64,000 nucleotides of DNA, from the NCBI GenBank assembly GCA_964016885.1, contig OZ024753.1, forward strand, positions 18,600,001-18,664,000. Direction: 5' to 3'. Position 1 is the stretch's first letter, and each line of letters opens with the position of its first letter. Made by a program: the position numbers and the translations under genes. This document shows positions 1 to 53,082 of this stretch, piece by piece. The DNA is from Eledone cirrhosa (lineage: Eukaryota). The notes beneath the pieces were generated by a model. That model did not search any database. It had not been told where the DNA came from and saw only the letters and a program-made list of their open reading frames with translations.

Positions 1-807
1 TGAAACCTACATAGGCTCCACTTCTAACTGCTTCAAAACTGGATACAATTCGCACCTCCACTCTTTCAAAAAACACAGTCTAGCCAACTCCACTTCACTA
101 TCTAGCTACATACACTATCTAAAAACTAAAAATAAAATATATACACTTAAATGGGAAGTGGTAGGTAGTGCAACATCGTACAAACCACCTGATAAATTTT
201 GTAACCTCTGTCTACTAGAGACACATACTATCATCTTCTCTAAACATAATCTCCTTAATAAAAAATCAGAAGTGTTCGCAAATTGCCAACCCCGCTTCCG
301 ACACTCGTTCCAAAACTTTAAACCCTATATATAATAATGTCAGACTGGAACCGGCACCAGCCCTAGCAATTAACATCAGTAGCACACCTTACACCTCACA
401 TCCACACCCATCTTTATACTCTAAAGATAATACTGACAGCATTTGAGTGCCACCTACCCTGGGAATACCCACTTGTACCTCTAATACTGATATCCCGACC
501 GTGGACTACTTATTCTGCATTGCACAAATATAAGATTAGTATAAATTAGGGACACGGTACTCGTTGTGATAGCATAGTCCTGTGCATGGATTACCACCAA
601 GAGATAGATTGATGATTAGATAGATAATCGTATTGTTAAGTGAGTATATACTGTAAGCGATCAGTTCATTGAATTATGCACGTAATCATCTTGATGTGGA
701 CTCCTTTAGTACCTATTAATAGACACCAGTCTAGCTTGGAGATGTGATACATAATTGATTTATATTTGAGACGGGGGTTGTCTATTACCTGATGGCCAGA
801 CTAGTGC
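1..807 (+). repeat. Direct repeat (pseudo-LTR-like) of the 3' part of PLE-1: GIY-YIG C-terminus (2-334) plus 3' UTR
   Basis: 1-807 is near-identical to 2931-3737 (offset 2930). Frame from 2 reads ETYIGSTSNCFK...CNLCLLE...LLNKKSE...CQPRFRH to TAA at 332-334. Confidence 0.9.
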
Positions 808-2715
808 TATTACTACTATTTCCATTGATATTACGGTTATTTGTTATAATGTTACTTTGACTGTCATTTTGAATGTTATTTTGAAGGTTTATCGACCGTT
901 GTGATTTAGTTTGTTGGAAGTAAGAATTAATTTTTCTTTTATTTGTACTAGCTATGTGGTATGCTAAGTTAGGCGTAGTAGAGTATGAGATCTTAATAGT
1001 GTTTTTGTTTAAAAGGCCGTGGTACCTGTGGCCGGATGGGAAGTGTTTATCTAGTAGTGAGAAGAAAGCCCTAGGAAGGTTGGTAGAGACGTTTAAATTG
1101 AAAGGAGGGTTGAACAATGTATTATTTCTTCTTCTATTTCTGTTTTTTATGTCTGGTGATTTGTTTCCTTTAATGTTCCTATGGTCATTTCTGTGGTGCG
1201 GGTTACTCTTGTTGTTACAATCCCTATTAGTGTGTGTGCAGTTGCTATTCTTATTATTAAATTTTCCCATGGACATGTGTGAAATGATGTTGTAGCTATG
1301 TGTTTTTGTAGGTAGGAACTCTATCCCTGTATTATGGCCTGATCTAGCTAATGCATGATTATAATACTGCGAGTTATTGTTAAATGTGTTTATGTCATAG
1401 GATAGATTCTATTAGATACTCCCTTAGATATAGAGTTCAATATAGATTTAGGGTGGTTAGACTTGGTATCTACGTAGATGAGTTTTTCATTAGGTTTGTG
1501 GAAAGGTGCATATATCATTGAGTCTAAGTAGAGTGTGGCGTCTAGGAAGTTGACGTTTTTGGTGTTTTTGTCCATGGTAATACTAAGGTTAAAGTTTTTG
1601 AATGTTTTGTGCAATAGTTTTCTAGTACTTTCTATATTGAATTTTTTATAGACTATAAGTAGAAGTGCATCATCGCGATACAAACCACCACTGAGGTACG
1701 GAAGTTCCCTGTGGATTAGGTTAAGTAAGTATAGGCCAACCAAATCAGTGACCTGCGCCGAGTCACTAGACCCCATAGTAATGTCGAAGTTGTTTTGCGT
1801 ATCCTTGCGGGTCCATAATTGGTCCTCAAAGGTGATTATTGTTTTACGGGCCGCAAGTATGACATCAATCTGGGGTCTAGTCAAGTCACTATTGTCCATG
1901 GCCATTATAAGTGCCTTATTTAGTAGGATAGGGGAAATAGAGGTGTAGTAAGAGTTGATATCAAATTGGATAAATTTTTTATCCTTGTTATCTATGATAT
2001 TTTTGAACCATTCAATCACTTCACCCGTATTTCCCCATTGCTTAAGGTAAATCTTGTGTTTAATCTGTGGGATGATTTTGTCTAGGATTTTTTTACTGAT
2101 AATGCCAATGTCAGACCTGGAGGGGCAGATTAGTCTAATCGAGGGGTTGCTAATGAAGTCCACCTTATGGTCCTTCAGAGAGAATCTAGGGGGGTTTGGG
2201 GTGTAAGGTTGTGTATGTCTCTGGAGCCCTAGTTTGGATACTATATTATAGCCTTCCATATTAATATCTTCTAAGTTTTTCATAGTGGTTTTTTTGTAGT
2301 TTTTATGTAGTTCATTATATATAAACTTTCTATACGTATTATAATCTAGGCTGTATATGTTATTAGTTTTGTCGGCATGTACAACAATTTTACTACAAGT
2401 TTTGAAGTCATTAATAGAGGTGCTAAGTTTGTTTAAGAAGGTGTTGTTTTTATTATGGTGTTTTTTGTATTTAATGTTTTTAACTAGTTTAATTAGGTCG
2501 TTTTCGAAGAGGTTTAATAGTGTGTTATGAGGGGGACTTCTAAATGTTTTAAATCCGAAAGAGTCAAATTTGTTGGTGTTATTATCCTTGCCAGATTTGT
2601 TTCTATCATAATGGAATGTCCTCCATCTCACTCTATTGATAAAGGAGTTTACACTGTTGATCAACAACTTTTCATATGTATTTTTGGTTGGTAAAGGTAT
2701 GTTCTTGGTTGACAT
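800..2715 (-). pseudogene. PLE-1 reverse transcriptase + thumb/linker, inverted relative to its endonuclease; one frameshift near 1400
   Basis: Motifs MSTKNIP, RVRWR, ADKTNN, QFDINSYY, MGSSDSAQVTDLVG, YRDD, FLD, SNHP. Homologous to the intact ORF at 59857-62298. ORF 785-1276 continues it (FNPPFNL, KISYSTTPN). Confidence 0.9.
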
Positions 2716-3264
2716 AGTAATAGCACTAGTGTAAACATTAACGCTGCGTACCACAACCCGCATAACCATAACCCTATAGCTAACCTCCAAACCTCTACAC
2801 AGCATAGTAACCGGCAGACTAGCACCCAGAGTAATTGTAACTGTAGATCAAGTAGAACCTGCCCTTTAGATAACAAATGCTTAACCAAGGATATCATATA
2901 CTCATGTACAGTCACAACTAACAGCTCTTCTGAAACCTACATAGGCTCCACTTCTAACTGCTTCAAAACTGGATACAATTCGCACCTCCACTCTTTCAAA
3001 AAACACAGTCTAGCCAACTCCACTTCACTATCTAGCTACATACACTATCTAAAAACTAAAAATAAAATATATAAACTTAAATGGGAAGTGGTAGGTAGTG
3101 CAACATCGTACAAACCACCTGATAAATTTTGTAACCTCTGTCTACTAGAGACACATACTATCATCTTCTCTAAACATAATCTCCTTAATAAAAAATCAGA
3201 AGTGTTCGCAAATTGCCAACCCCGCTTCCGACACTCGTTCCAAAACTTTAAACCCTATATATAA
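2716..3264 (+). pseudogene. PLE-1 C-terminal linker + GIY-YIG endonuclease (open frame with no ATG, missed by the ORF track)
   Basis: Reads SNSTSVNIN...CNCRSSRTCPLDNKC...IIYSC...TYIGSTSN...CNLC; ends TAA 3262-3264. Confidence 0.88.
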
Positions 3265-4764
3265 TAATGTCAGACTGGAACCGGCACCAGCCCTAGCAAT
3301 TAACGTCAGTAGCACACCTTACACCTCACATCCACACCCATCTCTATACTCTAAAGATAATACTGACAGCATTTGAGTGCCACCTACCCTGGGAATACCC
3401 ACTTGTACCTCTAATACTGATATCCCGACCGTGGACTACTTATTCTGCATTGCACAAATATAAGATTAGTATAAATTAGGGACACGGTACTCGTTGTGAT
3501 AGCATAGTCCTGTGCATGGATTACCACCAAGAGATAGATTGATGATTAGATAGATAATCGTATTGTTAAGTGAGTATATACTGTAAGCGATCAGTTCATT
3601 GAATTATGCACGTAATCATCTTGATGTGGACTCCTTTAGTACCTATTAATAGACACCACTCTAGCTTGGAGATGTGATACATAATTGATTTATATTTGAG
3701 ACGGGGGTTGTCTATTACCTGATGGCCAGACTAGTGCGTTTATATGAGAGATCGGATCTCCGGACCATACTGAAGATTTACTGGAGATGCAGGCAAGCAA
3801 TGACCCGGAGCCTACCGGGTGGCATATATAATAGTGGGACCATACCAGGTCCTACTGTTGTATTACATTTGCATGGAGCAGTGACTTGAGAGTCCGACTC
3901 CTCTTATAGAACGTTCAGATATGACACCCCTTAATTATTGGTTGGCAATCATCCTAGTATATACACCCTTGTACTTCTTAATGAACAACTCTCTAACTTA
4001 TAAATGGGTACCATACTCTAGATATTAGTTATAACTTCACATGATAGGCACGTATTTGAATCACCATTAATGTAGTTTAGCATAGTAATGAAACTAAAAT
4101 AACTAGCTAGTTACCTCCCCTTACGCATTAATTCCCCTTAATCATTCAGGCACTTCCGGAATTTGGACAGCATGATATATTAATTAAGAACCGACTGGAT
4201 ACCGTTTATAGCTTGACTATATGATGAACCACTGCGAATTATACGATAGACGCGTGTTCTCTATATATATATTGCGTCTCATGGATTATGTGAGTGGTGG
4301 TGTGAGCAAGGACAGTGGTACGACCTTGCCTACGATACAATAAGGTTTATAGTATGTTGAAGGTTTTTGATATTTTGGTGTTTCCCCGCATCCGAGACTG
4401 TATATCATACAGATATATGAGAATAAATGACTTAATAATTCAGCCTATATTATAAGATCGATTGCCTGCTTCAACTGCCTGTCCCTGCAAATATCATTCT
4501 GACGCACTCTAATCATGTATAGATAAGACAAGCGTGCATGCTACACGGGAGATTGCTTCATGCACTGACTACTCTAAGCTTTCCTCTTATTTTATCTTCA
4601 TAGACTGCCAACGCTTCATGTTTATCTTTATTTTCACTCTTGCTTTTATTTTATTTTATTTTATTTTATTTTTATCATGTAACACTTTATATGTAAATTG
4701 CCATGCTACATATATATACATATATATACATGTACATATATATACATGTATATATATATATAGT

Positions 4765-7250: not shown

Positions 7251-7288
<38 letters not shown>

Positions 7289-7474
7289 ACCATACAAATA
7301 CACACACACATACATACACATACATACATATACGTATATATATACACATATAGGAAAAAGTATGACCCCACGGCAGAGCTCAAGCCGTTTCTGAGGCTAT
7401 TATATATATACACACAAAAAACAAATATATAAAAATACACGCACACAAATAAACACACGCACACACACACACAC

Positions 7475-12994: not shown

Positions 12995-15900
12995 GTATCC
13001 CCCTTCCAGTGAGAAAGCTAAGATTGAACGAGCTACCTGTGTTGTTGAAGAAAATCAGTAAAAACAAAAAACACATGAAAGTCATTTACAAACAGGAGAA
13101 ATGAAAGAAAACATGCAAAGCAAAAGAAATTAACATGCAGGAAAATATACTGTGATGTTACATAAAATGGAAAATGTTCGTACGAAAAGTTTGTTGATTA
13201 AAGGTTCGTTCATTTCATAGAAACGGAAAAATGTTCTTTTGTCTGTTCTTTTGATGTGGGTGATGCACAGAGTTAATTGATTTGTGTGTAGCAATATTTC
13301 ATGACCACAGAAATTGGCCGATTCGTAGAAATGTACAAATTAGCCGAAATGTCGACCAGATGCATAATTTGTACTTACCCGATAAACTTGTACGTATCAC
13401 GTGGGCCATCGTACTGTTCTTCCGGATTTGGTGTGTCGCGGTTGTGCAGAATTTGTCGTGTTTGTGTCGGACAAAGTTGTTGGTGAGTCTGCTGGAGAAA
13501 CGGTGGGTACTGGTGGCAATTCCTGTTCTATGAACGCTTTTTTTAAACGATCAATGGAGACGGTATTTCGTTTCCCGTTCAAGCCGAGGACGAAATACTT
13601 AGGGCGTTTCTGTATCATCTTATAGGGCCCGGAATACGGCGGACGAAGTTGCGATGGAATACCGTCATTTCTAACGAAAACATGCGTCAATGTATCGATG
13701 TCTTTTGGTATGTGTGAAGTAACGTGCTGTTGTTTAGGGGCTGAAGGAGACAGATGCGACATCGATGACCGTAAACGGTGCCCATATTTTGTTGGGTCTG
13801 GAAGTTCTTGTGGCGAAACAGGAGCGATCATTTGTCCGGGTAGAGTGAGTACGGTGCCATACATCATTTCAGCCGGAGAATGTCCGACTCCCTCCTTAAC
13901 AGTGGAACGAATACCAAGAAGAATGAGTGGGAGGTATTCAAACCAGTTAGTGGAGTCTTCGTAGGCCTTGATAGATGATTTTAACTGGCGGTGTAAGCGT
14001 TCTACCATGCCGTTAGCGGCAGGGTGATACGCTGTTGTACGGATGTGTTTGCACCCGAGGAGACGTGTCAGCTCGGTAAAGAGGTGCGAATCGAACTGAC
14101 ATCCTCTATCCGTAGTGATGCTCGCTGGTGTGCCGAAACGCGAAACCCAGTGAAAGACTTGCGTTGTGGCGACAGTTTCCGCAGTAATATCCGTCAGAGG
14201 ATAAGCTTCTGGCCATCGAGAAAATCAGTCGACACAGGTGAGAAGATGAGTGTAGTTGTGAGAAGGAGGGAAAGGTCCAACAATGTCTATATGCACATGT
14301 TGGAACCGTGCATCAGGTGTTGCGAAAGAACCGATCGGGGCTTTGATATGCCGGTGAATTTTAGCCTTCTGGCACGCGATACAGTTCCTAGCCCATTCGC
14401 GGGTATCCTTGTTGATGTTGGGCCACACAAAGCGGGCAACCATAAGTTTCTGCGTGGCGCAGACGCCAAGATGTGCCAGAGAATGCAGTGCCGAGAAAAC
14501 GTCGCGTCGATGTTTCCGTGGCACGTATGGGCGCTCGTGGCCTGTGGAGATGTCGCACCAAATATAACCCGAATAAGAGGGCAGCGGGCATTCTTTCAAT
14601 TTCAAGGATGATTTCCGGAGTTGCAGCAGTTCCTCGTCATTCTATTGATCCGCTGCATTCCTCTGGAGGTCGATAGTGGCAGTGGTGTGGATTACGTTAA
14701 GCTCCATGCGCGATAGGGCATCAGCTGCTGTGTTGGTGGCACCCTTAATGTACCGAATATCAGTAGTGTTCTGAGAAATGAAGTCCAGATGTTGGACCTC
14801 CCTGGGTGAGTATCGGTCAGGCTTGGCATTGAACGCGTACACTAGTGGTTTGTGGTCGGTGTATATAGAAAACACACGACCTTCTAGCATGTGCCGAAAA
14901 TGCTTGACAGCAAGGTATGCTGCCAATAATTCACGACTGAATGTGCTGTTCTTAGTTTCGGCGGGATTTAATCGCTTAGAGAAAAAATATACAGGTCGCC
15001 AAATATCGCCAGAGAGTTGTTGAAGCACACCTCCAACTCCGAAATCGGATGCATCAGTCAATAAACACATTGGGGCGTCAGGTTTGGGGTAACTCATCAT
15101 TGTAGCCTCGGACAACATTTTCTTCAACTCAGCGAAAGCTGTACATTCTTTTTCGCTGAGCTTGATGTTTGCGTTTTTGGTTGTACGCTGCCACGGCAAA
15201 TCTGTGAGTGGCTGGGCTGTCTCTGCACAGTAGAGTAAATCTTCTGTAGAAGTTTACCAGGCCAAGAAATTCTCGCAGTTTGCGGAGAGATGTAGGTTGT
15301 AGAAAATCAATGATGGATTTGACTTTCTCCTTAAGTGGGCGAATACCATCTTTGTCAATGATGTGTCCCAGAAAATGAAGGGACGCAACTCCGAACTCAC
15401 ATTTGCTGGGGTTGATAACAATTCCGTATTCACGCAAACGTGTGAATAGGAGATCCAGGTGTTTCTCATTATCTTCATCGGAGCTGCTGGCCACCAGTAA
15501 GTCATCAATGTATGCGTATACAAAAGGTAGACCTCTGGTGACTCTATCGATGAATCGCTGGAATATCTGCGCTGCATTTCGCAAACCGAAAGGCATACGC
15601 AGAAATTCGAACATTCCAAAGGGTGTTGTGACTGCGGTCTTTGGAATATCTGCGGGCTCTACGGGTATCTGATTGTAAGCTCGCTCAAGATCGATCTTCG
15701 AAAATATGCGAGCCCCGTGCAGCGAGCTAGAGAAGTCCTGTAGATGAAGCACTGGATAAGAATCAGGAACGGTGCAGTTGTTCAGTGCACGGTAGTCGCC
15801 ACAGATTCGCCAGTCGTTCGACGACTTCTTGAGTACACAGTGTATGGGTGAGGACCAGTTGCTGCTGGACAGACGTATGATGCTGAGATCCAGCATGTGC

Positions 15901-17408
15901 TGAAATTCTTGTTTGACGGACTTCAGCCGGTCTGGTGGTAGCTTTCTAGGTCGTGCAGCGACAGGTGGGCCGTGTGTTTTTATGTGGTGTGTGACGTCAT
16001 GTTTTACAGGGCAAACGTTGAATAGTGGTCGAGCTACGTCTGGGTATTTGTTGATGATGTGGTTGTGCCGGGTTGTTGTTGTCGATCGTGAAATGACTGG
16101 ACTGACTGTGGGTGTCATAGCGACTATCCCGCGCACAGCGAGACCAGTGGAGTTGTCAACGAGACGTTGGTTTTTCAGATTCACTAGAAGCGAGAAGTGC
16201 TGAAAAAAATCAGCTCCTAAAATAGGGGTCGGCAGCTCAGCCACAACGAATACCCACTGGAAAGTGCGGCGTAGACCCAAATTTAGTGTCAGGGACTGTT
16301 CTCCGTAGGTCGGAATATGTGAGTGATTCACCGCCTGGAGCCAGACTGGTGTCTCTCTCTTTTTCCAGGAACGCAGGAAACCGGGATGATGCTCACTTCA
16401 GCACCGGTGTCAACCAGGAAACGCATGCCTGTGACGCGATCCTGAATGAAAAATAGGCGACTTTGGTTATGAGGGCCAGAAACGTTCGTCGCATTCAGTT
16501 TCTAGCTGTGTCGTTTCCCTGATTCGTTTTCGAAACAAATGAACAGGGATGGTTGCACTTTTGCGCTCGTCTCCCGAATGTTTGGTGGTACCAACACATT
16601 TCTGGTGAATCCCGAGATGCGCTCGGACTTCTTGAGCGACCACCAAATCGGCGAGTTCGACTGTTGGACCGACGCGTGGCCGGGTTGCCCAGTGACAAGG
16701 CCTGAATTTGTTGCGTCAAGGCCTGTATCTGTGTTGCTTGCTGTGCGAGTAACTGGTGTAGATCGGGCATCTCTGTGGCACTGGAGGGCTGAAGGAAAGG
16801 ATTGGTTGAAGGCACGGCTGGCGTCACATTCGCTATTTTTGAGTGCGGATGTGGTACCTCCATGATCTTATCTGCCAGCTCGGCGTGTTGTTCTATGATG
16901 GTGGACTCCCTGGTGGATGCTAGTACAACTTGTGTGGCAGAAGGTAAACGCTGGAGGAAGAGTTGCTTGAAAATTTCATCCAGGAGTTCTCCCAAGAGCT
17001 GCTTCATTCGCCGTAGGAGTTGTGTCGGGTTTTTATCTCCTAATTCCTCCGATATGAGGAGCTGGTGCAAGCGCTTCTGCTGCGACTCCGACGTCCGCTT
17101 AACTAATGTTCTTTTAAATGTGTCAAATGTGTCACCACAGAGCCGGGTGGTGCTAAAATGAGGTCTCGAACCTCATTCATAATCTCCGGAGACATCGATA
17201 CGATGAGATGTGTGAGACGGGATGCCTCGCTAACGATCCGGTTCAATGCGAACTGCGCTTCGATGTGCGCGAACCACAGTGTTGGATCGTGCACCCAGAA
17301 TGGTGGAATCCTTAATGTCGCCCTGACTGCCATTTCTGCCGTAGATGAATCGTCGTGTGCTAGAGACATCGTTTGTTGTGGATGATCAGAAGGTTGTGTG
17401 TCTGTTTT

Positions 17409-18946: not shown

Positions 18947-19419
18947 TAAATTTTCTAATTTCTTTAATTTTATAATGTTAATATTAAATATTAATTTTTT
19001 AACTTCATCCTATAAGTCTAAACAAAAATGTAACGTTCCAATCTTCTGCTCACACATTGTAACATACTGACCCCCACTATATTTACCTCTGCTAAGATAC
19101 GGGTCCCTTTGAAAATATTTTTTTCGCGCCACTCCTGGCCTGACTATATTCTGACATTAATATCGACCTCTCTTCCTCTTTCTTTCTATTTTTCTTCTTG
19201 TAGCCACCAACCCAGACTTTTCTTCTTCTTCCTTTTCTTCCTTCTCTTCTCCCTTCTTTCTGTATTACTCCTTGTGCCATGATATTAACGCTGACTTATC
19301 TTCCTCCCCCTTTTTGTTTGCCTATATTTGACCGGTAGTAGTTGTTAAGATTCGGGTCCCTTAGAATAACATATTTTTGATGTGGTATCACTGTACCCAT
19401 CCATTAACATTGATTTTGC

Positions 19420-21046
19420 TGTGGAATAATGTGTGGAGAGGATCATTGAGAGTGAGGTGGAGTTCTGCGACGTCGACACAGACGAACTGGGCCTCCTGCT
19501 TAGACTTACCTACGACACTGACTACCTAGACAGCCATGACCTTAGACGTGTCTGCCCTAATAGACCCATAAGGGGTAGACCCCCCACCTTAACCTCAAAG
19601 GCTAAAAAGACTCCCATGGAAGGTGGATTGGGTGGAACAAAGCTATACGGACCCCCCAAAACAATGATCAGGTAAGAAAAATGGTCGCACACGCAATAGG
19701 GGCTAGTATCAAAACTACCCTAAAGGGCCACATATTCAAGTTCAACGAGAAGATCTACACCCAAAATGAGGGAGCAGCCATTGGCGTCAGCAAAGCTGGT
19801 GATGTTGCCAACCTTTTTATGGTAGGTGGGAAAGGATATTTAAAGATCTCCTTAATGAGAGCTCCATAGACCTCATCATGTACTCTCGTTACGTAGACGA
19901 TATCAATATAGTTATAAGAACATCCCCACTAGAGAGCACTAACAAGTTTGATTTAGAACGTAGCACAATGGAAAGCATCTAGCAGATAGCTAATTCCATA
20001 CACCAGAGTATAACTGTAACTATCGACTACCCTTCCAAACACCCTAACAATAGACTACTTGTATTAGACACGGAACTCTGGATTAACACTATAGACGAGA
20101 GAGACCAAATTCTCCACTCACACTATGCTAAACCCATGGCCTCCAAATACCTGATACTCAAAAGCTCAGCAATGTCCAGTAGTGCTAAGTATAATATTCT
20201 GATCGCAGATTTGGTACGAGTGATGAAGAATGTGTCCCGCATGTGCGACCCAACAGAAATTGAAAGACACATCCAACACTTCATCAACCGCATGCAGTTC
20301 TCTGGCTACAACCAAAGAGACAGAGTCAGAGTATACGAAGGAGACATGGAAAAGTATAAGACCCTCATAGAACTGGACATGAAAGGAATTTGCCCACTAT
20401 ACAGGAACAAATCATGGAATAGCTTAGATAGGACTAGACATAAGATAGGGAAAGCCACCTCATGGTACGACAACCAGAGATACGCGAGTGTCATGTTTGT
20501 GGACGCTACCCCTGGAGGGAAATTAGATAACCAGAGTAGAAAGGCCCTGAGAAAGACCCACTTAAAGATTAAGTTGGTAGAAAAGCCAGGAACCACCATA
20601 AAATCCCTGATCAGCAAAACCTACCCTTTTAAGAAAACCCACTGTACCAATAGGAAATGTATCATATGTAAGGTAAACCCCCGGATAAACTGTAAAACTA
20701 GAAACGTAGCCTATAGCATAAGATGTACAGAGGGTACTTGCAGAAACATGACAACAACATACATAGGCGAGACAGCTCATAGCATAGGTGAAAGGATAGA
20801 CCAACACTGGGGGGAACTAAAACGACGAAAAAACGATTGTCAGTACTTTACGAACATGCCAGACAACAAGATCGTAAAATAGACAAAAAAAAAATTAGAA
20901 TAATATCTAAAAATAGAAATGACCCAGCAGATAGGCAAATCAGAGAGGCCAGTGAAATAGAACTTAGAAGGCCATGGCTAAAGAGAAAGGATGAATGGAA
21001 TAACAACAACACCCAAACAAACAACACTGACCCAAGAGAAGTATAA
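19420..21046 (+). pseudogene. Degenerate PLE of a different clade (Neptune/Poseidon-like): RT C-terminal half, thumb and GIY-YIG
   Basis: Motifs YTQNEGAAIG, YSRYVDDIN, HYAKPMASK, RMQFSGY, FVDATPGG, C..C..C..NVAYSIRC..YIGET..RIDQH. Several stops and frameshifts. Confidence 0.8.
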
Positions 21047-34853: not shown

Positions 34854-37270
34854 TGACAATATCCACAATATTGCAGTGGAGAAAACTCTACTCTCTGATC
34901 ATGACATGGTTCTCTGTGATCTGAGATTCCACCGTCCAATATACAAACCCAATGTCATCTCTCCTGTCCATCCGTTTGACGCTACGGATTTCCACAATGC
35001 AAACTGGGAAGCGATCAGTCATGATCTTGTACATGTCGACTGGTCCTTCACGCACACTCATACACCCACTAACATCAAAAAGTCCTGGCAGACATTTGTG
35101 GACACTGTTACAAACATATGTGCTAAACACACCCCATTAAGAACTATAAACAAATCTAAGAGCAGAATCCCTAGAAATAGAAAAACGCTCATCAGAAAAA
35201 TTAAGAGAACGAACAAAAAAATCAACAAGCTGAAATACTGTCAGCAGCAACACATCAACTTGACTGCCATTTCATCACTAGAGATTAAAAAACATAACCT
35301 CCAAAACAACATAATGTCCCTCATCAACAATCAGAGAAGAGCTGAAGAGGCCTGGGCCATTGAGAAGATCAAACTCAATCCCAAAGTGTTCTTTTCATTT
35401 GCAAAAAAACACAAAATCACTGGCTCTACTGTTGGCCCTCTAATTGATGAAAATGGCACTCTTCAAGACAATGCTAAAACCTTGGGTGAGATACTGCAGA
35501 AACAATACTGCTCTGTTTTCAGCAATCCTGATATGGCCGATCTGGGCTGTATCGGCGATGTTACTCCCCATTACATCTTATCGGACATAACGTTTGGCGC
35601 CCCTGATGTCCTGGCGGCAATAAAGGAAATCAAGCATAATTCAGCAGTAGGTCCCGATAGGTTCCCTGCTTGTGTCTTGAAGGCGTGTCAACACCAACTT
35701 GCATCTCCTCTTGCCAATCTGTGGCGGAACTCACTGGATGCTGGATATGTGCCAGAAAACCTCCTATCCCAGTCTGTTGTCCCAGTTTTCAAAAAGGGAA
35801 ACAAATCCCTTGCCGTGAATTACCGTCCAATCTCACTCACCTCTCATATCATTAAAGGTATTTGAGCGAGTGGTGAGATCGCGAATGACCCACTTCCTTG
35901 AGAGTAACAAATGCTGAACTCCAACCAGCATGGATTCCGTAATGGAAGGGATTGCCTGACGCAGCTACAGCATCACTTTGATGACATTTTGAGAGCCTTG
36001 GGAGAGGGTTCCAACACTGATGTTATCTACCTTGATTTCAGCAAGGCCTTTGACAGGGTTGATCATAACATTCTACTGAGAAAGCTGTCCAATATTGGTG
36101 TCACTGGAAAGCTGCTGCAGTGGATCAAGAGCTTCCTGTCAAACAGAACCCAACATGTTGTAGTTGAGGGAGTCAAATCAAGCCCAGCCAAAGTCAGTAG
36201 TGGGGTCCCACAAGGCACTGTGTTGGGCCCACTTCTCTTCATCATCTATATTAATGACATCACTGACATCATCAAACACAGCAACATTAAAATTTTCGCT
36301 GATGATTCCAAGCTCCAAAAGGTCATCAATGGCGTGGATGACCGGATAAGCCTTCAGTCAGACCTACTGGCTGTTACCCAATGGGCAGAAAAGAACAACA
36401 TGTTACTGAACGAAGACAAATTTGAACTGATCCACTTTGGAAAAGAGGATGCTCTGAAACTTCCGTACTCCCTTCCCTCCGGGGAAACTCTCGTGGCATC
36501 TAACAACATCAGAGACTTGGGAGTAACCGTGGACAGCAATATAAGCTGGACCACGCATATAAGCAGCAAAGTTGACATGGCCCGCAGAATGTGATCCTGG
36601 ATCCTCAGAACCTTCCAGTCGAGAGATTCCCGCACCATTATCCTTCTCTTCTCTACTTTCGCCCGACCACACCTTGAATACTGTTGTCCACTGTGGTCTC
36701 CCCACACGAAACAAAGTATCATGAAACTTGAAGCTCCTCAAAGGGCAATCACGAAAAAGATAGATGGCATGTCAGACCTTGACTACTGGGGTCGATTAGA
36801 AAACCTGAAACTTTACTCACTCCAACGTCGCCGTGAGCGTTATATTATCTGCATGATGTGGAAAATGTTCCATCATCACTGCCCAAATGATGTTGGCATC
36901 GCCTTCAAGATACACCCAAGGCTTGGGCCCCGTGCTATCCGTCCCATTCAAAAATCTAAATCGCAACTCATAACAACAATACGGCACAATTATTTCACCT
37001 CAATCGGCCCTGCTCTCTTCAACATCACACCAGGACACGTCAAAACAGAAACTGACCACACAAAATTCAAGAAGTCTTTGGACAAATTCCTCCAAGTAAT
37101 CCCGGACAAACCACCCACACCCGGATATGTCTCCGCAAACAGTAATTCTCTTCTCGAATGGGCCATGGTGCCCAAATCCTGAATTGAAAGACTTCGCCAG
37201 GTGGTGCTATTAAGTTAGACATGGCCTGGGCCAATACTGGCCAAAACATTTCAAAGTTATTCAAAGTTAT
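34854..37270 (+). mobile_element. CR1-group LINE, 5'-truncated ORF2 (end of APE endonuclease + RT), with frameshifts and a stop
   Basis: Motifs [59 protein letters not shown]. 3' tail (TTCAAAGTTA)x2. Confidence 0.93.
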
Positions 37271-44709: not shown

Positions 44710-47700
44710 ATAACTTTGAATAACTTTGAAATGTTTTGGCCAGTATTGGCCCATGCCATGTCTAACTTAATAGCACCACCTGGCGAAGTCTTTCAATTCA
44801 GGACCTGGGCACCATGGCCCATTCGAGAAGAGAACCACTGTCCGCGTAGACACATCCGGGTGTGGGTGGTCTGTCCGGGATCACCCGGAGGAACCTGTCC
44901 AAAGACTTCTTGAATTTTGTGTGGTCAGTTTCTGTTTTGACGTGTCCTGGTGTGATGTTGAAGAGAGCAGGGGCCGATTGAGGTGAAATAATTGTGCCGC
45001 ATTGTTGTTATGAGTTGCGATTTAGATTTTTGAATGGGACGGATAGCACGGGGCCAAGCCTTGGGTGTATCTTGAAGGCGATGCCAACACATTTGGGCAG
45101 TGACGAATGGAACACCTTCCACATCATGCAGACAATATAACGCTCACGGCGACGCTGGAGTGAGCAAAGTTTCAGGTTTTCTAATCGACCCCAGTAGTCA
45201 AGGTCTGACATGCCATCTATCTTTTTCGTGATTGCCCTTTGAGGAGCCTCAAGTTTCATGATACTTTGCCTCGTGTGGGGGAGACCACAGTGGACAACAG
45301 CACTCAAGGCGTGGTCGGGCGAAAGTAGAGAAGAGAAGGATAATGGTGCGGGAATCTCTCGACTGGAAGGTTCTGAGGATCCAGGAACACATTCTGCGGG
45401 CCATGTCAACTTTGCTGCTATATGCGTGGTCCAGCTTATGTTGCTGTCCACGGTTACTCCCAAGTCTCTGATGTTGTTAGATGCCACGAGAGTTTCCCCG
45501 GAGGGAAGGGAGCACGGGAGCCTCAGAGCATCCTCCCTTCCAAAGTGGATCAGTTCGAATTTGTCTTCGTTCAGTAACATGTTGTTCTTCTCTGCCCATT
45601 GGGCAACAGCCAGTAGGTCCGACTGAAGGCTTATCCGGTCATCCACGCCATTGATGACCTTTTGGAGCTTGGAATCATCAGCGAAAATTTTAACGTTGCT
45701 GTGTTTGATGATGTCAGTGATGCCATCAATATAGATGATGAAGAGAAGTGGGCCCACACAGTGCCTTGTGGGACCCCACTACTGACTTTGGCTGGCTTGA
45801 TTTGACTTCCTCAACTACAACATGTTGGGTTCTGTTTGACAGGAAGCTCTTGATCCACTGCAGCAGCATTCCAGTGACACAATATTGGACAGCTTTCTCA
45901 GTAGAATGTTATGATCAACCCTGTCAAAGGCCTTGCTGAAATCAAGGTAGATAACATCAGTGTTGGAACCCTCTCCCAAGGCTCTCAAAATGTCATCAAA
46001 GTGATGCAGTAGCTGCGTCAGGCAATCCCTTCCATTACGGAATCCATGCTGGTTGGAGCTCAGCATATTGTTACTCTCAAGGAAGTGGGTCATTCGCGAT
46101 CTCACCACTCGCTCAAATACCTTAATGATATGAGAGGCGAGTGAGACCGGACGGTAATTCACGGCAAGGGATTTGTTTCCCTTTTTGAAAACTGGGACAA
46201 ACAGACTGGGATAGAAGGTTTTCTGGCACATATCCAGCATCCAGTGAGTTCCGCCACAGATTGGCAAGAGGAGATGCAAGTTGGTGTTGACACGCCTTCA
46301 AGACACAAGCAGCGAACCTATCGGGACTACTGCTGAATTATGCTTGATTTCCTTTATTGCCGCCAAGACATCAGGGGCGCCAACGCCATGTCGATAAGGT
46401 GTAATGGGGAGTAACATCGCCGATACAGCCCAGATCGGCCATATCAGGATTGCTAAAACAGAGCAGTATTGTTTCTGCAGTATCTCACCCATGGTTTTAG
46501 CATTGTCTTGAAGAGTGCCATTTTACATCAATTAGAGGGCCAACAGTAGAGCCAGTGATTTTGTGTTATTTTGCAAATGAAAAGAACACTTTGGGATTGA
46601 GTTTGATCTTCTCAATGGCCCAGGCCTCTTCAGCTCTTCTCTGATTGTTGATGAGGGACATTATGTTGTTTTTCAGGTTATGTTTTTTAATCTCTAGTGA
46701 TGAAATGGCAGTCAAGTTGATGTGTTGCTGCTGACAGTATTTCAGCTTGTTGATTTTTTTGTTCGTTCTCTTAATTTTTCTGATGAGCGTTTTTCTATTT
46801 CTAGGGATTCTGCTCTTAGATTTGTTTATAGTTCTTAATGGGGTGTGTTTAGCACATATGTTTGTAACAGTGTCCACAAATGTCTGCCAGGACTTTTTGA
46901 TGTTAGTGGGTGTATGAGTGTGCGTGAAGGACCAGTCGACATGTGCAAGATCATGACTGATCGCTTCCCAGTTTGCATTGTGGAAATCCATAGCGTCAAA
47001 CGGATGGACAGGAGAGATGACATTGGGTTTGTATATTGGACGGTGGAATCTCAGATCACAGAGAACCATGTCATGATCAGAGAGTAGAGTTTTCTCCACT
47101 GCAATATTGTGGATATTGTCAGTGTGATTGCTGAAAATTAAGTCTAGGACGTTTTTGTGGCACCTCGTTGGTTCGAGCACCAGTTGGGATAGGAAGAAAT
47201 CATCCATGAAGTCAAGAAGCGATTCCACAGCTTCCCTGTCAGAGGTTGAGGCAGAAGAACCTGGTGGCAGGCTGTTTGTGGACCAGTCAACTCCGGGGAG
47301 GTTCAAGTCCCCCATCATTAAGATGTTGTCAGGTGACACTCTTGGATGAAACACTTTATGCTGTTGAGGCATTCCTTGAAGCATGGTACAGGCGTTTGGG
47401 GTGGCCTATAGAGCCCAACTACTAATAGGTTGTTGGTTTGACTGAATACAGTGACTGCTTCACAGTATCCATTAGTGAATATGTTCATAGCCTCTGTTGA
47501 GAAAGAATTATGGACATAAATGGCAGTTCCGCCCTTTCTTCTGCCAGCGCGATCAGCACGGATGGCTTTGAAATTTTTCACTTTCACCTCGGCTTCCAAG
47601 TGGAGGTTACTGAGATGGGTTTCAGTGAGGACGAAGAAAGGGATGTGTTTGGATGGACATCAATCCAGTCCTCCAGGAATTTGATCTTCCATTTTTGAGT

Positions 47701-49413
47701 ATTGGTGGAAGGGCTGATGCCTTGGGCGTTAGGCAAAAATGTAGAGGCGAGAGTGGATGGTTTTAATTGTTTTGGTGTGTTGTTAATTTGTTTGTTTGTT
47801 AATGGCAGCAATGGGAGTTTGTGCAGTTGGGTGATAGTGGAGGGTGGTGCTGGGTGATAGCTCGAATGTTTTTTTCCAGTTCTTTTGCCAGATTCATTAT
47901 GGCTAAAAAAGAGGAAGAAGTTTCCTGTTTAGAAGACTGTTGGTGACTGTGGTAGTGGTTATTTTTATGTAGGTTATGGTTTTTGTTTTTGCTTTTATTT
48001 TTAATTTTATTTTCATTTGTCCGACGGGTCCCCGGGAGATGGGTAAAGGGACAATCCCGGTCTAAACACAATCTGTCTCGCAGGGAAAAACGGCAGATTT
48101 GTGGATTCCTTGTTTGAGTATTGGTGGTTGTGTTGGTGTTAAATTAGAGTATGTATTATGGTGGTGGCTGTTTGTGGGATAGATCGTTTTGTCCTAGGTA
48201 AATGGGTGAATTTGCAGCCACTATCCGTACATATTCTATAGCGTAGAGAGTAGCGGCAAATGATGGGGTTTCGGTGGGTGGTATGTGGGTGTGTGTGTTG
48301 TGAGAGGTGTAGATGATGGTTTGGGTAGGATTTGACGACCTTTGTGGACTGTGGGAGGGAGAGTTCTTGTTCTGGTATTAGAAGGTAAATTCCTTGACAT
48401 AGCAGTAGACAAAAATGTTGTAGTAGTAGTAGTAGGCAGAGATGTTGGCAGTGGTGATGATTGGACTGCTGGGCCAGAGAAAGGATGTGGCGTTTCATGC
48501 TGTGAGACAGAGGCTACTGGGGGGTCAATAGTTTCATTTAGTAGATCGGCCATTGTTGATGAATCAAGGAGTGGTTCACACTGTTGTTGTCGTTGTTGTT
48601 GTTGTTGCTGTTGTTGATGTTGTTGTTGTAGCTGTTGTTGTTGTTGCTGTTGTAGCTGCTGTTGTTTTTGCTGCTGCTGGACAGCATTCGAAGAGAAAAC
48701 ACACGTTAGTTTATCCAAATGTTTATTGATTAATTTAAAAGCAATTTCGATTTGCTTAATTTATTTTGAATCTGTTGTTCAGATCGAGTTTTCAAAAATT
48801 GAACTGTACGTTTAGCAATGTCGTTCAGAGATGAAGCATGTATGTGCTTCTGTTTGGGAAAGGCAATGCCATGTGTTTATTAGAATGTCGATTTCATTAT
48901 CAGACCAGTTCTGTTTGGATTTTTGCTGGTTAGCCATTCTAGTTTTTGAGCGTGTGTGTGTTTTAGTTAAGTATTTCAATATATATATATTTTTTTTTAA
49001 TTTATTTTTGATTATTTTTGTTTTTTGTTTTTCTTGTGTGTGAGTGAGAAGAGTATATATATAAATATGAGTATATATATATATATTTGTATATTCTGGT
49101 TATTGAAAGTAATGTAGTTAATGAAAAGACGAAAGTATATAATAATAATTTGTAGTTAAAGGAAAATGTACTCACAAGTTCGAAAACACGTGGTTTCAAA
49201 TATATAATAATATAGATGTATGTAAATGTATAACCGGTCAATTTTCAAATATATAATAATATAGATGTATGTGAAATGTATTAACCGGGTCAGATTTTTT
49301 GTTTGTTGGTGGGGTTTGTGTCTTGTGGTATTGTTTGTGGCTGTGTGACTTGCTGCTTTACTCGGGGAGAGAAGTAAAAACACGTCTTATACTTCAACTG
49401 CTCAACTGCTATC
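44710..49413 (-). mobile_element. CR1-group LINE, apparently full length (5' UTR, ORF1 from 48937, APE-RT ORF2 ~47760-44800), frameshifted
   Basis: Inverted homolog of 34854-37270. APE motifs NAQG, ETHL, GGTAIY, YRPP, GDLN, LDLIF, SDH. ORF1 has polyQ and two CCCH fingers. A ~45-bp duplication lies in the 5' UTR (49194-49288). Confidence 0.93.
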
Positions 49414-53080
<3,667 letters not shown>

Positions 53081-53082
53081 TG

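What the first reader, a model, noticed from the sequence alone, without database searches (positions are those of the whole stretch)
44794..46390. LINE copy with a ~1.6-kb tract of sense-strand A-to-G hypermutation
Seen: against its sister copy (34854-37270), 44804-44895 has 13 A-to-G sense-strand changes and one transversion. The bias continues with dozens more changes to ~46390 and only a handful of the opposite type, then 46570-47118 is almost identical. Protein motifs give the polarity: PGY..NSL becomes PGC..GSL, LYSLQRRR becomes LCSLQRRR, HLEYC becomes RLECC, so this copy is the derived one. Only about one of ~35 inspected changed As has a 5' G. Inference: a second, independent ADAR fossil in a different retroelement class, suggesting A-to-I editing as an anti-LINE defence analogous to APOBEC3 G-to-A scars. 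Caveat: the same tract has many 1-bp indels and the two copies form a long inverted pair, which is known to degrade nanopore accuracy.
Basis: partly seen in the sequence, partly recalled or inferred. Interest (0 to 1): 0.8.

Follow-up and report, generated by a model that had tools for sequence, protein, structure and literature searches.

The report
RNA-edited LINE copies fixed in DNA
A full-length jumping-gene copy carries 44 A-to-G changes on one strand of its 3' third, and two copies on other chromosomes show the same scar, likely because the RNA-editing enzyme ADAR altered their RNA before it was copied into the chromosome, which would make normally temporary RNA edits heritable.

Summary
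Against its sister, the minus-strand LINE has 43 sense A>G changes in 44804-46387 and one G>A; about 0.7 are expected. No subfamily shares these G alleles. A second assembly of the locus (C1011) has all the A>G changes and none of the tract's 13 one-base indels, so the indels are assembly noise. The copy is full-length (4.7 kb), with both ORFs open in C1011; its 5' 3 kb is clean. The changes avoid a 5' G (2 of 99 against 42 of 362, P=0.003) and come as AA>GG pairs (11 against 2.3), as in ADAR hyper-editing. Two more hyper-edited copies (25 and 80 A>G) lie on other chromosomes, 5'-truncated, without a family neighbour within 20 kb. All three spare the folded 3' UTR. Best reading: ADAR-edited LINE RNA, reverse-transcribed into the germline (0.8). 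The 'defence' claim is unproven: at least 3 of about 2,750 copies, and 0 of 37 other 5'-end copies. No reads of this individual were available. The scan noted the same phenomenon on other DNA of this genome.

The parts
44719..49403 (-). Full-length (4.7 kb) copy of a young APE-endonuclease/RT LINE family, inserted between (TA)n arrays
   Evidence: Matches 37 other copies that reach the 5' end at 95.8-98.6%; at least 2,753 family 3' ends in the genome
44804..46387 (-). A-to-G hypermutated tract: 43 changes in the window copy, 44 of 461 A in the C1011 assembly
   Evidence: 0.67 expected from the family background, Poisson P about 4e-61
44804..44895 (-). Densest part: 13 A>G, five AA>GG pairs, at the end of ORF2
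44719..44797 (-). 3' UTR, unedited (0 of 24 A) here and in both other edited copies; predicted to fold into a stem-loop; ends in a short tandem repeat before the TA array
   Evidence: joint P about 1e-4 from rates in the last 300 nt of ORF2; the sister's 3' end folds at -27.7 kcal/mol, z -3.5
44798..47928 (-). ORF2 (endonuclease and reverse transcriptase), 1045 aa open in C1011; frameshifted only by assembly indels in the window; 28 non-synonymous and 9 synonymous edited codons
   Evidence: (RVT_1 4e-30, Exo_endo_phos_2 7e-13)
47800..48955 (-). ORF1 (388 aa stop to stop in C1011; coordinates approximate), two Cys/His motifs of CCCH spacing seen by eye
   Evidence: no Pfam hit, no Atlas hit
46388..49403 (-). 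Unedited 5' part: 1 A>G among 1,085 A columns, inside an (AC)n run
34856..37270 (+). 5'-truncated unedited sister copy; its 3' end faces the focal 3' end about 7.5 kb away; present in both assemblies
44970..49230 (.). Stretch with about 32 inserted or deleted bases relative to C1011: assembly noise in the chromosome copy

Best explanation
This LINE copy has 44 one-strand A-to-G changes in its 3' 1.6 kb, likely because its RNA was paired with an inverted copy and hyper-edited by ADAR, and was then likely reverse-transcribed into the germline by ordinary target-primed insertion, with inosine read as G. Shown: the changes, their strand, their context, their bounded tract, and their recurrence in independent copies from at least two source lineages. 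Inferred: (1) a donor transcript held the 3' part of the element in dsRNA, most simply by folding back on a 5'-truncated inverted copy, which sets the 5' edge of the tract; (2) ADAR made the changes; (3) the 3' UTR stayed unedited because it folds on itself or is bound by ORF2p, or because RNAs edited there cannot prime insertion; (4) the RT that copied 4.7 kb came from another RNA or was made before editing, since the edits hit conserved RT residues; (5) the new copy is probably dead. The scar is a rare by-product that can disable copies; a dedicated defence is not shown.
For: Spectrum: 43 A>G against 1 G>A; 44 A>G, 1 T>C and 1 G>A against 37 copies that reach the 5' end, whose maximum is 2 A>G per 300 bp against 16 here. 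Context: 5' G edited in 2 of 99, others 42 of 362, P=0.003; three copies pooled 12 of 177 against 136 of 723, P=4e-5; 5' G depletion is the shared ADAR motif across metazoa (PMC5625713, passages). Adjacent pairs: 11 against 2.3 and 26 against 11.6 under a trinucleotide-matched null (0 of 5,000 shuffles each); 5 against 2.7 in the third copy (P=0.08); paired adjacent editing is typical of cephalopod ADAR (PMC8891338, passages). Independent copies: C1:340.147 Mb (25 A>G, 2 other changes) and C4:174.162 Mb (80 A>G, 3 other changes). They are 5'-truncated, have no family copy within 20 kb, share only some sites (15 of 34, 9 of 13, 6 of 16), and the C4 copy carries another lineage's alleles. Strand: a mirror T>C pattern found 0 hits. 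Second assembly with the edits and without the indels. Deaminase-domain genes are present at three or more loci. Edits hit conserved residues: D738G (D in 32 of 35 homologues), Y879C (32 of 35), Y808C (31 of 35), T599A (31 of 35), N1034G (26 of 27). No daughter copy was found.
Against: No raw reads of this individual: four public runs laid show only the unedited family. C1011 and the chromosome differ at only about 4 substitutions in the 4.7-kb element against 0.24% in the unique flanks (P about 0.01), so they may share a haplotype and some reads. No donor was found: 3 of 37 copies with a 5' end have a downstream inverted partner, but none is of the focal lineage. No 3' neighbour preference was seen (3' G P=0.39). 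The focal copy itself sits next to an inverted sister, which allows a local origin. No RNA data show that this family is edited.
Confidence: 0.8

Rival explanations
1. In-place write-back: the full-length element was already here, a read-through transcript folded back on the inverted sister 7.5 kb downstream and was edited, and a 1.7-kb cDNA from it overwrote the 3' end of its own locus.
For: The tract lies wholly inside the part that the sister can pair with. Only 4 of 100 listed copies have a downstream inverted neighbour within 10 kb, and 10 of 100 have one on either side. ADAR substrates are mostly intramolecular folds (PMC13445718, abstract). The 5' and 3' halves belong to one lineage. 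A tract that ends inside a full-length element resembles a conversion tract.
Against: The two other edited copies have no neighbour, so a neighbour is not needed; 1 of 3 with a neighbour has P=0.12-0.27 by chance. 0 of 3 other 5'-end copies with a downstream inverted partner are edited. 257 A in the sister-paired part upstream of the tract are unedited, though a short cDNA would explain that too.
Confidence: 0.11
2. Error-prone synthesis during insertion: with low dATP, the polymerase put G opposite T during second-strand synthesis, mostly in A runs.
For: It gives sense-strand A>G, clustering in A runs and a bounded tract (reasoning from recalled work on dNTP imbalance; no call).
Against: Slippage predicts enrichment next to G, but a 5' G is avoided. 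Pairs exceed a context-matched null. Three copies all stop before the 3' UTR.
Confidence: 0.04
3. Sequencing or assembly artefact of an inverted pair in long reads.
For: The window copy has many one-base indels. Nanopore quality drops in the second arm of inverted duplicates (PMC7229812, part 2 of 4 read). No raw reads were seen.
Against: C1011 has the edits without the indels. The indels run beyond the paired arm, while the A>G changes cover only two thirds of it. Other inverted pairs are clean (0 of 3), and two edited copies have no inverted neighbour. The part of the paper read describes miscalls and missed bases, not a one-way A>G change.
Confidence: 0.03
4. ADAR deaminated DNA directly, in the RNA:cDNA hybrid of the insertion intermediate or in an R-loop.
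For: ADARs can act on the DNA strand of model hybrids (PMC12925331, passages).
Against: The DNA strand paired with sense RNA is antisense, so this predicts sense T>C; seen are 1 T>C against 44 A>G and no mirror hit. It would need antisense RNA at three loci.
Confidence: 0.02

Closest known systems
A-to-G hyper-edited avian retroviruses (Rous-associated virus, avian leukosis virus; as reviewed in PMC12925331, passages)
   Same: Clustered A>G from ADAR-type editing of a retroelement RNA, carried into DNA by reverse transcription
   Different: Those are exogenous retroviruses, with nearly 50% of A changed in U3 and inverted-repeat regions. Here it is a non-LTR retrotransposon in a chromosome assembly, 10-24% of A over 0.3-1.6 kb of ORF2, with the 3' UTR spared.
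APOBEC DNA editing of LTR retrotransposons in vertebrate genomes (Knisbacher and Levanon, PMC4866542, passages)
   Same: Strand-biased, motif-dependent clusters of one substitution in single retroelement copies, fixed in the genome
   Different: Those are G>A from C-to-U on cDNA, number hundreds of thousands of sites and are tied to restriction; invertebrates were the negative control. Here it is A>G, inferred to arise on RNA, in a LINE, in about 0.1% of copies.
ADAR hyper-editing of repeat-derived dsRNA, including 3' fragments of chicken CR1 (Porath et al., PMC5625713, passages) and paired editing in cephalopods (PMC8891338)
   Same: 5' G depletion, dense clusters, adjacent-A pairs, LINE 3' portions as substrate
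   Different: Known as RNA-only; here the pattern is in DNA. The downstream-A preference reported for invertebrates is not clear here.
ADAR1 restriction of human LINE-1 (Orecchini et al., PMC5224506, passages)
   Same: ADAR meets LINE RNA
   Different: There, restriction did not need the deaminase domain and no edits were seen in more than 2.5 kb of L1 RNA. Here edits are recorded and restriction is untested.

Membership tests
APE-type non-LTR retrotransposon (LINE) | ORF2 with AP-endonuclease and reverse-transcriptase domains | tested here: met
   Pfam Exo_endo_phos_2 and RVT_1 over their cut-offs
APE-type non-LTR retrotransposon (LINE) | Copies share the 3' end and are variably 5'-truncated | tested here: met
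   35 copies aligned, with 5' ends from position 1 to 4276 and nearly all reaching the 3' end
   35 homologues at 25-46% identity carried no names; no named reference set was at hand
ADAR hyper-editing signature | Only A>G, on one strand, in dense clusters | tested here: met
   mirror control
ADAR hyper-editing signature | G depleted 5' of the edited A | tested here: met
   P=0.003 for the focal copy, 4e-5 pooled
ADAR hyper-editing signature | Coupled editing of adjacent A | tested here: met
   Met in 2 of 3 copies; third P=0.08
ADAR hyper-editing signature | Downstream-base preference (A in invertebrates, G in mammals) | tested here: inconclusive
   Pooled 3' A 58 of 317, G 28 of 147, C 31 of 224, T 31 of 212
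ADAR hyper-editing signature | A dsRNA partner that matches the tract | tested here: inconclusive
   The local sister covers the tract but extends 735 nt further; no donor of the right lineage among 37
ADAR hyper-editing signature | Same sites edited in RNA, dependent on ADAR | not testable with these tools
   No RNA holder listed; PF02137 loci were not separated into ADAR, ADAT and ADAD
APOBEC-type retroelement editing | G>A on the sense strand | tested here: not met
   1 G>A against 43 A>G
Deaminase-based retroelement defence | Loss of the enzyme raises retrotransposition | not testable with these tools
   Only sequence harm was seen: conserved residues changed, no daughters

The most novel reading that the evidence does not exclude
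ADAR edits are written back onto their own gene: a resident full-length LINE's read-through RNA folded on the inverted sister, was hyper-edited, and its cDNA converted the 3' 1.7 kb of the source locus, an RNA-templated germline gene conversion that makes RNA edits heritable in place.
Probability: 0.11. Interest if true: 0.92.

Novelty: new variant of a known kind. Interest (0 to 1): 0.66.

Why it matters
It is sequence evidence that A-to-I edits can enter the inherited genome through a LINE, a route I did not find reported for non-LTR retrotransposons in five library searches (the library lacks most subscription papers). Each edited copy is a single-molecule record of ADAR acting on a retrotransposition-competent RNA. 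It shows which strand was copied, how far the duplex reached, and that the 3' UTR is spared, which points to the part of the RNA that the LINE's RT needs. A full-length insertion with a recoded RT makes the timing of editing against translation, and cis against trans mobilisation, testable. It also gives invertebrates a counterpart to the APOBEC scar screens and a way to test whether ADAR limits transposons.

Tried and rejected
Subfamily explanation: rejected. Donor search by the copy's private dinucleotide change found only the two assemblies of this locus. Two copies truncated near the tract's 5' edge were checked for a full-length neighbour within about 20 kb: none; one has a truncated inverted neighbour, which I count as chance because I picked them for their truncation point. 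First T>C mirror control was swamped by an older subfamily: 237 hits, 30 fetched, all 65-92% identical without T>C excess, 207 not examined; the second gave 0. Six extra hits of the A>G patterns: five are ordinary copies with 1-3 A>G, one (L040) was too short for my filters. Public runs: no RNA holder listed; best share 0.52; 4 of 24 laid, showing the unedited family; the small-share RNA guesses remain unexamined. Other elements of the window as the 'first fossil': no excess in the elements at 800-2900, 14000-16000 and 19380-21000; 7272-7352 is a microsatellite. ORF1 gave no Pfam or Atlas hit. The census is a lower bound: all seven A>G patterns were built on edits already seen, and a site chosen without that bias was not surveyed. 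Supplements of papers were not opened; that of PMC4866542 may list A>G cluster counts in LTR elements.

Full report
Check of the observation. A global alignment of the minus-strand copy with its sister (34856-37270, +) gives 43 sense A>G changes between 44804 and 46387, one G>A, and a few other changes. In 35 unedited copies the background is 32 A>G per 21,867 A, which predicts 0.67 in the tract (P about 4e-61). That set included four copies picked for carrying a G, so the rate is if anything high.

Artefact test. The best hit after the window itself was an unplaced 50-kb contig, C1011, which is collinear with the window from about 32,400 to 55,800 and differs by 0.2-0.7% in unique sequence and by 12 substitutions in the sister. 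It carries all the A>G changes (44, one of which the window loses to a deletion) and none of the 13 one-base indels in the tract. The indel noise in the chromosome copy runs on to 49230, past the paired arm. In C1011 both reading frames are open: 388 aa and 1045 aa, the second with endonuclease and RT domains. Against this: within the element the two assemblies differ at only about 4 substitutions, fewer than the flanks predict (P about 0.01), so they may come from one haplotype, and presence on both alleles is not proven. Public runs gave no confirmation: none holds more than 0.52 of the words, and the 4 of 24 laid show the unedited family.

Anatomy. The copy is full-length, 44719-49403, between TA arrays. 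Against 37 other copies that reach the 5' end it has 44 A>G in the 3' 1.6 kb and 1 among 1,085 A upstream; none of the 37 has more than 2 A>G in 300 bp, against 16 here. Edited A avoid a 5' G (2 of 99 against 42 of 362, P=0.003). Adjacent pairs number 11 against 2.3 under a trinucleotide-matched null. Both features are described for ADAR (PMC5625713, passages; PMC8891338, passages). There is no clear 3' preference. Of 37 changed codons 28 are non-synonymous; five hit residues nearly invariant in 27-35 homologues. No daughter copy was found.

Other copies. The family has at least 2,753 3' ends. Seven patterns that demand extra G found the focal locus 7 times, a copy at C4:174.162 Mb 5 times and one at C1:340.147 Mb 3 times, plus six other hits, five of them ordinary and one unassessed. 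The C4 copy has 80 A>G of 331 A and 3 other changes; the C1 copy has 25 of 108 and 2 others. Both are 5'-truncated and have no family copy within 20 kb, apart from a 158-bp fragment beside the C4 copy. They share only part of their sites with each other and with the focal copy, more than chance in two of three pairs, and the C4 copy carries alleles of another source lineage. These are independent events with common hot spots. A mirror T>C pattern found nothing; an earlier one was uninformative. All three tracts end within 45 nt of the ORF2 stop, and none touches the 24 A of the 3' UTR (joint P about 1e-4), which is predicted to fold well (z -3.5). The patterns were built on edits already seen, so 3 of about 2,750 is a lower bound.

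Mechanism. The strand points to RNA: deamination of the cDNA strand in an RNA:DNA hybrid would give sense T>C. The simplest path is a donor transcript that folded back on an inverted, truncated copy, hyper-editing by ADAR, and target-primed reverse transcription that read inosine as G (0.8). The dsRNA source, the enzyme and the insertion step are inferred; deaminase-domain genes exist at three or more loci but were not typed. The main rival is in-place conversion, because this full-length copy has an inverted sister 7.5 kb downstream, which 4 of 100 listed copies have, and ADAR substrates are mostly intramolecular (PMC13445718, abstract). But the other two edited copies have no neighbour, and 0 of 3 other 5'-end copies with an inverted partner are edited, so I give it 0.11. 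The donor was not found. Polymerase error (0.04), artefact (0.03; PMC7229812, part 2 of 4) and direct DNA deamination (0.02) fit worse.

Defence. The edits probably disable this copy, but rarity cuts both ways: ADAR may seldom meet competent LINE RNA, or edited RNAs may mostly be removed. Human ADAR1 restricts L1 without editing it (PMC5224506, passages).

Comparison and novelty. The nearest precedents are A>G hyper-edited avian retroviruses (PMC12925331, passages) and APOBEC G>A scars in vertebrate LTR elements (PMC4866542, passages). Searches listed no paper on ADAR-edited LINE copies fixed in a genome. A paper on octopus LINEs describes RTE and Dong elements and has no match for CR1 (PMC9115989, passages); PMC5850729 was seen only as a listing. 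The labels 'octopus' and 'CR1-type' come from earlier AI notes and were not tested. Those notes report the same phenomenon in Penelope, RTE and CR1-type copies elsewhere in this genome; they are unchecked and not counted as support. What this locus adds is a full-length copy with open ORFs, a second assembly that separates edits from indel noise, and the spared 3' UTR. Verdict: real, a new variant of a known kind, interest 0.66.

Noticed in passing
C1011:1-2654 and C1011:27100-38000 (L033, L032, L034): The second assembly has a third family copy and about 10.8 kb of extra sequence inside the TA array at window 49410-53081, both absent from the window: likely polymorphic insertions.
   Followed up: partly
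L037-L127, L150-L186: The copies whose flanks I printed or read (focal, sister, L044, L045, L048) lie inside (TA)n arrays, and copies cluster: 17 neighbour cases within 10 kb among 100 listed. The family likely targets TA microsatellites.
   Followed up: partly
window 47800-48955 (-): ORF1 has two CCCH-spaced Cys/His motifs, a polyglutamine run and an N-terminal stretch that looks Myb/SANT-like by eye (recalled motif); no Pfam or Atlas hit.
   Followed up: partly
L002:1430-3324, runs X1, X2, X3, X5: Runs labelled as three different organisms hold this family almost unchanged apart from the edits (X1: 53 differences in 1.9 kb, 45 of them at edited-type sites): close relatives, label variants or horizontal spread.
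   Followed up: no
L155 (C239) and L166 (C1417): Full-length copies with an inverted partner 0.3-2.2 kb downstream; both partners start at the same position, 1999, although the full-length copies differ in alleles. Strong candidate sources of edited RNA; unedited in DNA.
   Followed up: partly
window 1-3737: Penelope-like element with 807-bp direct repeats and a near-identical inverted duplicate just left of the window; the class label is by eye, with no Pfam hit.
   Followed up: partly
window 13397-17172 (-): Degraded LTR retrotransposon with RT and integrase domains, about 96% identical to its relatives, with C>T excess and no A>G excess.
   Followed up: partly
L172 (C839): Copy with an internal inversion (positions 3662-4143 reversed after 3506), as in twin priming.
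   Followed up: no
C22 and C27 hits: Four copies share a single G at the site edited at window 44894; a subfamily variant, or a single edit fixed in a source element.
   Followed up: partly
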